NCBI GenBank assembly: GCA_038204425.1
Contig: JBBRCZ010000003.1
Coordinates: 96,001-160,000, forward strand
DNA length: 64,000 bases
Direction: 5' to 3'
DNA from: Spirochaetia bacterium
GTDB lineage: Bacteria; Spirochaetota; Spirochaetia; DSM-27196; Salinispiraceae
Numbering within the stretch: position 1 is the stretch's first letter; each line of letters begins with the position of its first letter. Below are positions 39,001 through 42,000 of this stretch, in pieces. Position numbers: made by a program.

Positions 39001-42000
39001 ACTGGGTTTCACTGGGATTCCAGAAGCTGGTGATCCATTCCAGGTTACTGAAAGCGATAAGTATGCTCGGGAAATTGGCGAAAAACGACAAGAACTCAAA
39101 AAGGTTGAAATAGCGAAGAATGTTAAGCGTATAACACTCGACAATCTCTACGATTCTATTAAATTGGGCGAAGTCAAAGAACTTAAAGTTGTTATCAAAG
39201 GCGACGTGCACGGCTCTGTGGAAGCTATCAAGACATCATTAGAAAAGCTATCTACGCGTGAAATAGGTCTGTCGGTTATTACCGCCGCTGCCGGAGCTAT
39301 CAATGAAAGCGATGTCATGTTGGCGGCCGCATCCAACGCCATCATAATTGGTTTTCATGTGCGCCCATCGGTTAAAGCCCAAGTTTTGGCTGATCAAGAA
39401 AAAGTTGAAATTCGCAAATACAGCATCATTTATGACGTTGTTGAGGATATCAAGACCGCAATGGAAGGTCTTTTGGCACCAGAGTTCAAAGAAGAACAAT
39501 TGGCTACCGTTGAGGTACGCGAAGTATTTAAGGTGCCCAAGCTCGGAACAATCGCAGGTTCCTACATTACTAAAGGTAGCGTAAAACGTAATGCGATGGT
39601 TCATTTGGTTCGCGAAGGTATAGAGATATACACAGGAAAGATTGTAAGTTTGCGACGCTTTAAGGAAGATGTAAAGCAAGCAGAGGCAGGATTTGAATGT
39701 GGTATTGGTCTTGAGGGCTTTTCTGAAATTATGGTCGGTGACCAACTGGAAGTTTTTGAAATGAAAGAAATTGCCAGAAAATTGGGACAAACACTAATAG
39801 AAGAAGCTGCTGAAGTAGCCAAGAAAAAAGACAAGGCCTAGATTATGGCCATGCATAGGCAGACACGGGTTGAGCATTTATTGTCTCAACTGCTTGGCAG
39901 CATGATTGTCAGCGGAGAAATCAAAGATCCTCGTGTGAGTACTTTGGTTTCGATTGGTGATATTAGTGTGGCAAAAGATTTGTCGCACGCCAAAATAGGT
40001 GTCTCGGGTTACATGGATGACAAAGAACTTGAATTGGCTGTGGAAGGACTCAATTCCGCAGCTGGTTTTATTCAATCGAGACTTGCTAAGAGCCTGCAGA
40101 CACGGTTGACACCACGATTGCATTTTGAAGTCAACCGCAATATCAAGGCCGCCTTTGAAATGTCTAAAACACTGGATAGTCTAAATATTAAACATGAAAC
40201 AAGCGATGACAACGGCGGGGATAGCGATACTTGATAAACCGGAAGGACTTACCTCCTTTCGGGCCTTAGGTGCGCTCAAAAGAAACTTATCAACCAAAAA
40301 AATCGGTCATTGTGGCACTTTGGATTTGTTTGCCAGCGGGCTGCTGCTTGCTTTTGTCGAAGAAGCTACTCGCTTAGTGCCCTGGTTTGTTGGTAAAGAC
40401 AAGAGCTACACTGCTCAGATATGGTTTGGTTCGCAGACAGACACCTTGGACCCTGGCGGCAAGCAAATTGCCAGCGCTGACGTGCCGTCACTCGAGCAAA
40501 TTCTGTCCGTTTTACCAAGTTTTGTAGGAAATATTGCCCAAGTGCCGCCAGCCTATTCGGCAATACACATTGATGGAAAGCGCGCCTACCAGCGCGTGCT
40601 TGCAGGGGAAGAACCGGCACTCAGACCACGTAACATAACTATTCACTCGATAGACTTTCTCAAATGGCAGTCGCCAGTAATGACCATTCAAGTGGCTTGT
40701 TCGTCCGGAACATACATACGTTCATTGGCACGTGACATCGCTTTAGCCTGCTCCTCGGTGGCACACCTGTCAGGTTTGAGGCGAACCCAACTTGGTTCAC
40801 TAAAGGAGTCCGACTCGCGGGTTTGCAGTCCAGATCAATGCGGTATCAATGAAGTTATATCGGGCAGGCGCGTACTTGATTTGATAGGCGAGGTGCAGTG
40901 TCTCGAGCTGCGAGAACAATTTGAAGCCGACTTTAAGCAGGGCAGAGCCATAAAAGAGACATGGTTTAGCTCGCTTGACCTTCCTATTGAATCCCAGACG
41001 GCTATGGTTGCCTGCCAAGATCGCATTGTAGGCGTCGTAACGCTGGTTAGACAGCAAGCTATACGCTACCAACAGGTTTTCCCTCGCGGAATATGATACT
41101 TGACATGGGTCGTTTATACCACGATAATGTCGCCATTATATTGTAGTCCAAGAACATAATTGTGACCTATAGCAAACGGAAAGCAGATAATTTTTTGCCG
41201 ATGATCGCAGCATTCTTTTGGGTGGCGCAGATCAGATAATCAAATTGTTACAGCATGCGCATACAAATTGCATAAGTCACCAAGAAGGAGCTGGAGATGT
41301 CCATTACCAAAGAAAAAACTCAAGAGTTGATCACCACGTTTGGCGTTGGTGAAAAAGATACTGGTCGTACTGAAGTACAGATTGCTATCATTACAGAAAG
41401 AATTAGTAAGTTGACCGAACACTTAAAGTCTTTTGCCAAGGATCATAGTTCACGGCGAGGTTTGCTCAAGTTAGTTGGGCAACGTCGCCGACTCTTGAAG
41501 TACCTCAAGCGAGAAAAACTCGAAACCTACCGAGAACTGATTGCCAAACTTAACCTGCGCAAGTAGTTTCCGCAAGCACTAAGACAAGGAGACTATATGC
41601 ACAAACTTTCTATTAAGATTGGCGAAAGCGAACTAAGCTTCGAAACAGGGCGCATGGCCAAACAGGCAAATGGTTCGATATTTGCTCAGTACGGTGGCAC
41701 TTCGGTGCTGGCTACAGTATGTTGTGGTACAAAAACCGTTGACAACCTCGACTACGTACCACTTTCGGTTGAGTACAACGAGAAATACTACGCTGCCGGA
41801 AAAATTCCAGGCGGCTTCTTAAAACGAGAAGCTCGACCTAAGGACAAGGAAATCTTGGTTTGCCGTTTGATTGACCGACCTATGCGTCCGCTTTTTGAAA
41901 AAGACTTCAAGAGAGAACTGCAGATCGTACCAACGGTAGTTTCAACTGACCAGATTAATCCATCAGACGTAATAGGGATTGTGGCATCTAGCGCTGCTGT

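What a model noticed while it worked through the whole genome (the two positions that open the first line are those of the whole stretch)
40194..41566. No recognisable riboflavin kinase or FAD synthetase although riboflavin is made: ribF deleted from truB-rpsO
ribF is cleanly absent from the truB-ribF-rpsO slot (200 bp gap) and no flavokinase, FAD-synthetase or archaeal RibK domain is found in six frames, although ribD/E/BA/H, an FMN riboswitch and many flavoproteins are present. Flavokinase is missing order-wide, so FMN and FAD must be made by unknown enzymes; a kinase-dead NadR-like adenylyltransferase (g01267) is one candidate for the FAD step.
Evidence so far: PF06574 own 0 at E<=10; tblastn with a relative's RibF finds nothing; relatives have truB-ribF-rpsO in 4 of 4 loci. 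FAD_syn 40 of 57 order genomes, absent also in two single-contig family members; flavokinase PF01687 0 of 57 order, 7 of 81 class, 49 of 55 outside the class; PF01982 0 of 5. g01267 keeps HxGH, lacks the kinase P-loop; its four pnuC-less homologues outside the order all lie in genomes without FAD_syn.
(Added by a program. Inside this text positions count along the whole contig: contig position 96,001 is position 1 of the stretch shown here. "Call 12" and the like, gene names such as g00115 and contig names such as C1 are that model's own, and its searches are not shown. The text may have been shortened before it was handed on; [...] marks where a part breaks off. The agent that wrote the report below was given it as the finding of a first reader that could run no searches.)

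Follow-up and report, generated by a model that had tools for sequence, protein, structure and literature searches.

The report
Spirochaetes lacking known flavin-activating enzymes
This spirochaete makes vitamin B2 but has lost the standard gene that turns it into the working cofactors FMN and FAD; a repurposed NAD-salvage enzyme probably does the second step, and the enzyme for the first step is still unknown here and in most of its relatives.

Summary
Confirmed. ribF is deleted between truB and rpsO, and no flavokinase, FAD-synthetase or archaeal RibK domain is found, though a riboswitch-led ribDEBAH operon is present. The gap is class-wide: 21 of 301 Spirochaetia genomes have a flavokinase, against 69 of 80 outside the class, and 0 of 31 type II RibF proteins examined keep the kinase motif. 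New here: the FAD step is filled in near-complementary ways. Among 72 RibF-less genomes outside family f30, 41 carry an archaeal RibL-like protein and 22 the kinase-dead NadR-like protein (g01267 here), never both; 0 of 80 RibF-bearing genomes have the RibL-like protein. g01267's substrate loop is remodelled. It is probably the FMN adenylyltransferase (~0.7), untested; 15 of 16 RibF-bearing order genomes also keep it. The riboflavin kinase stays unidentified; four candidates failed as a universal replacement. The scan earlier noted a kinase-decayed RibF in Chloroflexota (e1-1467177, unchecked), not this pattern.

The parts
39845..40234 (+). rbfA, upstream gene of the conserved rbfA-truB-(ribF)-rpsO-pnp block
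   Evidence: ORF; orthologues in the same order in relatives
40194..41096 (+). truB, tRNA pseudouridine-55 synthase, intact, 300 aa
   Evidence: TIGR00431 217.6 bits, cut-off 151.45
41097..41296 (.). 200-bp intergenic stretch where type II ribF (about 780 bp) sits in relatives; no remnant
41297..41566 (+). rpsO, ribosomal protein S15
41597..43681 (+). pnp, downstream gene of the block. The other parts of the finding lie outside the window: g01267 at G000 C5:169085-169960(-); riboswitch and rib operon at C18:23425-27185(+); NadM-Nudix at C2:149004-150095(+)

Best explanation
The organism makes riboflavin de novo under an FMN riboswitch (shown by gene content). The class Spirochaetia ancestrally carries only a type II RibF, an FMN adenylyltransferase whose kinase barrel has decayed (shown in 31 sequences), so riboflavin is phosphorylated by a separate enzyme unrelated to the two known flavokinase families (inferred; enzyme not identified). 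Because the remaining RibF does only one simple step, it was repeatedly displaced: by an archaeal RibL-like protein in some families and, in this order and families f11, f17 and f43, by a NadR-derived protein (g01267) that kept the ATP-binding HxGH domain, lost its kinase P-loop and its pnuC partner, and rebuilt the loop that binds the acceptor nucleotide. g01267 most likely catalyses FMN + ATP -> FAD + PPi (inferred from distribution and anatomy), which let ribF be deleted from the truB-rpsO slot here.
For: Flavokinase 21 of 301 class genomes vs 69 of 80 outside. Type II C-termini: PTAN 0 of 31, no terminal helix. Eight single-contig genomes have RibH but neither flavokinase nor FAD_syn (G059, G010, G037, G042, G063, G087, G034, G058). 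Complementarity: of 72 RibF-less non-f30 genomes, RibL-like (E<1e-30) in 0 of 22 with the kinase-dead NadR-like gene and 41 of 50 without it; RibL-like in 0 of 80 RibF-bearing genomes. Outside the order all 12 genomes with the kinase-dead gene lack FAD_syn and 0 of 189 FAD_syn genomes have it. 265 of 274 non-f30 genomes have at least one of the three. Five single-contig f11/f17/f43 genomes hold CoaD + NadD + this protein and no RibF or RibL-like protein, so it is not needed for NAD or CoA there. In 80 P-loop-intact homologues the loop P-Q-E-P..F-W is near-invariant (P 100%, F 99%, W 100%); in the kinase-dead group it is P-x-A-x-R with no Trp (A 96%, R 80% of 50 rows, 2 of which were misfiled intact proteins). 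In 80 GTDB loci the two changes are fully coupled: 53 lack both P-loop and FW (all titled as spirochaetes), 27 have both. Model pLDDT 85.5, best fold match NadR.
Against: No biochemical test. 15 of 16 RibF-bearing genomes of the order also keep the gene, so it has a use there that RibF does not cover or is simply redundant. Kin are not independent: the 22 genomes may reflect one ancestral acquisition with about 8 losses of ribF, so the Fisher P values (1e-11, 4e-7) overstate. The Trp is also missing in four P-loop-intact homologues (G293, G029, G164, G056), so its loss is not diagnostic of FMN. No flavin gene lies beside g01267 homologues; neighbours are ROK kinase, ppx, ppk1 (41, 41, 38 of 53 loci). 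The RibL label rests on recalled motif likeness and on automatic 'FAD synthetase' names in 13 of 120 rows; NCBIfam gave no RibL model hit. 9 RibF-less genomes have neither protein (3 have an intact NadR, 2 a stand-alone NadR-type transferase domain, 4 are 85-92% complete), and family f30 has none of the three (27 of 27 lack FAD_syn and the NadR-like gene; RibL-like tested in 2). RibL-like was tested in 80 of the 202 RibF-bearing genomes only.
Confidence: 0.66

Rival explanations
1. g01267 is still an NMN/NaMN adenylyltransferase (or acts on another nucleotide), and FAD is made here by a moonlighting HxGH enzyme such as CoaD, NadD or G000's NadM-Nudix, or by an unrelated protein.
For: Clear descent from NadR (TIGR01526 135 bits; PDB hits); kept beside RibF in 15 of 16 order genomes; G050 (f30) has only CoaD and NadD and no third HxGH enzyme, so some spirochaetes manage without any of the three.
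Against: NadD is already present in 5 of 5 genomes checked and G000 has NadM next to nadE; if moonlighting sufficed, 41 of 50 other RibF-less genomes would not need a RibL-like gene; f30 members are host-dependent and may import FAD (inference).
Confidence: 0.22
2. FMN comes straight out of the biosynthetic pathway because the 5'-phosphate is never removed, so no kinase is needed in riboflavin producers.
For: Flavokinase genomes are skewed to non-producers: RibH in 5 of 20 flavokinase-positive vs 31 of 60 negative genomes (hand-picked handles).
Against: Lumazine 5-phosphate is not a substrate of riboflavin synthase (PMC13151069, passage); RibH keeps the PG(A/S)(F/Y/W)EIP motif in the 19 sequences picked by it and RibE motifs look ordinary; 29 of 60 flavokinase-negative genomes lack RibH and would still need a kinase for imported riboflavin.
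Confidence: 0.05
3. The missing kinase is the uncharacterised P-loop/Asp23 fusion (G000 C2:163148-164023, minus strand).
For: Found in 287 of 301 class genomes, including 27 of 27 f30; intact Walker A; its N-terminal domain resembles 5'-OH kinases (Clp1, Grc3, T4 PNK; Z 6.1-6.3, rmsd 3.8-4.7, 115-134 residues aligned); absent from 100 of 113 genomes outside the class.
Against: Not found in f43 (0 of 6; 0 of 3 with the alignment), which make riboflavin and lack flavokinase; outside the class 10 of 13 carriers also have flavokinase and only 3 of 11 flavokinase-less genomes carry it; KH-like C-terminal domain and an rluA neighbour (24 of 34 loci) point to RNA.
Confidence: 0.07
4. Artefact: ribF or a diverged flavokinase lies in the unassembled part of G000 or is below detection.
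For: Assembly 95.6% complete, 24 contigs; genome searches use a loose first filter.
Against: The slot is contiguous and empty; single-contig relatives of the same family lack both domains and have the same junction; unfiltered HMM searches of six frames find nothing; the same Pfam search rings in 10 of 10 bacterial controls.
Confidence: 0.04

Closest known systems
FADS-type II (Yruela et al. 2010, PMC2972280; passages read)
   Same: FMNAT domain plus a short C-terminal module without PTAN; the paper lists Treponema pallidum, Mycoplasma conjunctivae and Eubacterium saphenum as having only this type.
   Different: The paper treats it as a rarity of a few pathogens; here it is the class-wide state (FAD_syn in 205 of 301, flavokinase in 21 of 301), and G000 has lost even this gene.
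NadR (NMN adenylyltransferase / ribosylnicotinamide kinase; PDB 1LW7, 8X7F, 6GYE)
   Same: Two-domain fold, HxGH, the SE and final S-x-x-x-x-R motifs.
   Different: No P-loop, acceptor loop rebuilt without the first Trp, no pnuC neighbour among 53 loci against 15 of 27 for intact homologues.
Archaeal-type FAD synthase RibL and its Entamoeba homologue (PMC11423594; passages)
   Same: Stand-alone HxGH transferase replacing the FMNAT of RibF; a RibL-like family does this in 41 class genomes.
   Different: G000 has no RibL-like gene; g01267 shares only the HxGH strand with it (hhalign 35 columns). Archaea and Entamoeba have a known kinase; these spirochaetes do not.
Plant plastid RibF1/RibF2 (PMC9678776; passages)
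   Same: Full-length RibF homologues without kinase activity; FMN synthesis in plastids is by an unidentified enzyme.
   Different: No evidence here that the same enzyme is involved; not tested.

Membership tests
Canonical bacterial RibF route (type I FADS) in G000 | FAD_syn domain PF06574 | tested here: not met
   0 matches at E<=10; own HMM and tblastn negative
Canonical bacterial RibF route (type I FADS) in G000 | Flavokinase domain PF01687 with PTAN | tested here: not met
   0 matches at E<=10
Archaeal CTP-dependent RibK | PF01982 domain | tested here: not met
   0 of 5 genomes including G000; rings in 4 archaeal controls
FADS-type II (the relatives' RibF) | FMNAT domain with short C-terminal module lacking PTAN | tested here: met
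   PTAN 0 of 31; LP..G.Y remnant 25 of 31
FADS-type II (the relatives' RibF) | No riboflavin kinase activity | not testable with these tools
   Shown for plant homologues per PMC9678776; Deka 2013 assumes TP0888 is bifunctional without a test in the passages read
NadR (g01267) | HxGH nucleotidyltransferase domain of NadR type | tested here: met
   TIGR01526 E 2.6e-39 but 135 bits against cut-off 341; Foldseek NadR E 6e-16
NadR (g01267) | P-loop ribosylnicotinamide kinase | tested here: not met
   Absent in 37 of 37 orthologues with loci
NadR (g01267) | Trp of the acceptor loop (nicotinamide stacking: role recalled, not from a call) | tested here: not met
   W 100% in 80 intact homologues, 4% in the kinase-dead group; also lost in four intact homologues
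NadR (g01267) | pnuC neighbour | tested here: not met
   No pnuC family among the 28 commonest neighbours of 53 loci; 15 of 27 intact loci have it
FMN adenylyltransferase (function of g01267) | FMN + ATP -> FAD + PPi | not testable with these tools
   Inferred from complementarity
RibL archaeal-type FAD synthase (family A3 in other genomes) | About 145-aa HxGH cytidylyltransferase-like protein related to MJ1179 | tested here: inconclusive
   Size and HxGH met; 13 of 120 homologues named FAD synthetase by JGI; no RibL model among NCBIfam hits; no direct comparison with a characterised RibL was run

The most novel reading that the evidence does not exclude
Most of the class Spirochaetia, probably including its human pathogens, phosphorylate riboflavin with a third, undescribed family of riboflavin kinase, and one branch completes FAD synthesis with a NadR-derived enzyme that switched from nicotinamide to flavin nucleotides: a riboflavin-to-FAD route with no known enzyme at either step.
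Probability: 0.55. Interest if true: 0.88.

Novelty: new variant of a known kind. Interest (0 to 1): 0.78.

Why it matters
A 2026 review calls riboflavin kinase and FAD synthetase ubiquitous (PMC13151069), and spirochaete papers either assume the kinase-less RibF does both steps (PMC3573665) or, in the passages searched, do not name the enzymes (PMC13432742: 0 occurrences of kinase, ribF or synthetase). Here 280 of 301 genomes of a class show no flavokinase. This defines a missing essential enzyme that can be hunted in harmless free-living species, would be unlike the human kinase, and parallels the unidentified plastid kinase of plants. It also names a directly testable new FAD synthase type and extends RibL-like enzymes to bacteria.

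Tried and rejected
Kinase candidates: (1) long thymidine-kinase-like protein (C10:91490-92614): 49 of 80 genomes, missing in 14 of 31 RibH-positive flavokinase-negative genomes, present in 12 of 20 flavokinase-positive ones, neighbours are deoC and nucleoside-binding proteins, PDB hits thymidine kinase: rejected. (2) P-loop/Asp23 fusion: see rivals. (3) DAGK-like C1:328200: 0 of 5 genomes. (4) ROK kinase facing g01267 in 41 of 53 loci: absent from the site in G000 and G103, only a 29% paralogue in G000. Context mining gave nothing: genes after 30 FMN riboswitches were rib, rfuA-like or ribU-like; 20 rib operons had no recurrent kinase neighbour; 30 RibL-like loci none. Motif scans of G000 for kinase, HAD, PAP2, CofD and DAK signatures gave no further lead; the proteome was not annotated in full, and a whole-genome orthologue intersection was not done, so other class-core candidates remain open. 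No flavin-related fusion among 7 long homologues scanned out of 150 listed. The N-terminal domain of the P-loop/Asp23 model was barely tested by the fold searches, which the C-terminal domain dominated. Literature searches listed no paper naming a spirochaete riboflavin kinase or a NadR-type FAD synthase; the library lacks most subscription papers, Ramos 2022 was not held, and no supplements were read. PMC10734484 and PMC5956850 (passages) added nothing.

Full report
Observation. The window holds rimP-nusA-infB-rbfA-truB-rpsO-pnp; truB ends at 41096 and rpsO starts at 41297. In relatives a type II ribF fills this slot in 29 of 29 loci examined. In G000 (95.6% complete) PF01687, PF06574 and PF01982 give no match at E<=10, and unfiltered HMMs built from 8 kinase and 31 type II sequences find nothing in six frames. 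The slot is also empty in G059, G083, G037 and G009. An FMN riboswitch heads ribD-ribE-ribBA-ribH on contig 18. Homologue labels place the organism in the class Spirochaetia near Salinispira.

The kinase gap is class-wide. In an even sample of 301 class genomes, 21 have a flavokinase domain, one of them a 28-residue scrap in a 12%-contaminated assembly; 205 have FAD_syn. Of 80 genomes from other classes of the phylum, chosen to avoid heavily masked ones and including all 13 carriers of one candidate gene, 69 have flavokinase; family f65 (0 of 9) is a second kinase-less lineage. The class RibF keeps the adenylyltransferase and a decayed barrel: PTAN in 0 of 31, no final helix. This is FADS-type II of Yruela 2010, described there for a few species (passages). 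Deka 2013 assumes the T. pallidum protein is bifunctional (passages and section 8). Eight single-contig genomes make riboflavin (RibH) yet lack both domains. FMN riboswitches occur in 95 of 150 class genomes, so FMN is present inside these cells (inference).

The FAD step. G000 has three HxGH transferases: CoaD, a NadM-Nudix beside nadE, and g01267; nadD is gone from its obg-yqeK slot. g01267 has the NadR fold. Its alignment matches 52 of 301 genomes at E<=1e-15; 37 of these are the kinase-dead type: 25 of 27 order genomes and 12 genomes of f11, f17 and f43. All 12 lack FAD_syn. Five of them, single contigs, hold CoaD, NadD and this protein. I then asked what the other RibF-less genomes use: G009, G058, G027 and G034 each have an extra 145-aa HxGH protein resembling archaeal RibL (likeness recalled, and 13 of 120 homologues are named FAD synthetase by JGI). 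Searching its alignment in 72 RibF-less non-f30 genomes (69 without FAD_syn plus 3 whose FAD_syn match I set aside as weak or probably contaminant: G104, G140, G129) gave strong hits (E<1e-30) in 41: 0 of 22 with the kinase-dead gene, 41 of 50 without. In 80 of the 202 RibF-bearing genomes the best hit was 1.4e-16. Of the 9 with neither, 3 have an intact NadR, 2 a stand-alone NadR-type transferase domain, 4 are incomplete. In all, 265 of 274 non-f30 genomes have one of the three. RibL-type activity has been shown for Entamoeba (passages). The anatomy agrees: loss of the P-loop is coupled to replacement of the P-Q-E-P..F-W loop by P-x-A-x-R, and pnuC is gone. Against: 15 of 16 RibF-bearing order genomes keep the gene; the Trp is also absent in four intact homologues; no flavin gene is adjacent; relatedness inflates the counts; f30 (probably the Borrelia family, my inference from size and gene order) has none of the three. 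I put g01267 as FMN adenylyltransferase at about 0.7.

The FMN step. All three enzymes need FMN, so a kinase or phosphotransferase must exist (inference). Riboswitch, rib-operon and RibL-like contexts show none. A thymidine-kinase-like protein, a DAGK-like protein and the ROK kinase were rejected. The uncharacterised P-loop/Asp23 fusion is in 287 of 301 class genomes but is not found in f43, does not anticorrelate with flavokinase outside the class and looks RNA-related; it remains a weak candidate. A bypass through phosphorylated lumazine conflicts with known riboflavin synthase specificity (passage). The enzyme is unidentified, and may differ between lineages. Plant plastids pose the same open question (passages).

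Novelty. Type II RibF is known; its class-wide extent, the three-way displacement of the FAD step and a NadR-derived FAD synthase were not found in ten library searches, which miss most subscription papers. The scan's notes held nothing on this genome or sequence and one unchecked note of a kinase-decayed RibF in Chloroflexota. Verdict: real absence, probable new FAD synthase variant, and a well-defined missing essential kinase. Interest 0.78.

Noticed in passing
L304, L324-L330 and L306, L309, L312, L315, L321 (families f38, f40): The RibL-like gene is fused to, or lies next to, an EamA/DMT-type membrane protein (family recognised from sequence). Riboflavin importers RibN and ImpX are of that kind (recalled), so this may be a flavin importer-synthase unit.
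   Followed up: no
G000 C2:149004-152127 (L163) and C1:475641-477354: nadD is deleted from the obg-nadD-yqeK slot and apparently replaced by a NadM-Nudix beside a glutamine-dependent nadE; the Nudix box looks degenerate.
   Followed up: partly
G000 C2:163148-164023 (-), L162:5149-6024: Uncharacterised P-loop plus Asp23/KH-like protein in 287 of 301 class genomes, usually beside rluA; probably essential, possibly an RNA 5'-OH kinase.
   Followed up: yes
G000 C10:91490-92614 (-), L161:7494-8615: A 374-aa thymidine kinase, about twice the usual length, conserved at 44-61% identity in 49 of 80 spirochaete genomes.
   Followed up: partly
Family f65 (G328, G353, G362, G370, G378 and others): A second flavokinase-less lineage outside the class (0 of 9), with no RibL-like gene in 5 tested and no RibK in 2 tested.
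   Followed up: partly
L249, L253, L255, L258 (G293, G029, G164, G056): P-loop-intact NadR homologues that also lack the acceptor-loop Trp, two with pnuC directly upstream; two of the four genomes lack RibF and RibL-like. They could be riboflavin salvage units (importer plus kinase plus adenylyltransferase).
   Followed up: no
L260:3269-3709, L261:3061-3492 (G121, G247): Stand-alone 145-aa NadR-type transferase domains in two RibF-less, RibL-less genomes; a possible fourth FAD-step solution.
   Followed up: no
window 12408-12752 (-): tmRNA (RF00023, 156 bits), the only Rfam match in the window.
   Followed up: no
window 54522-56024 (-): Photolyase-like gene, a likely FAD user inside the window (recognised from sequence; not scanned).
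   Followed up: no
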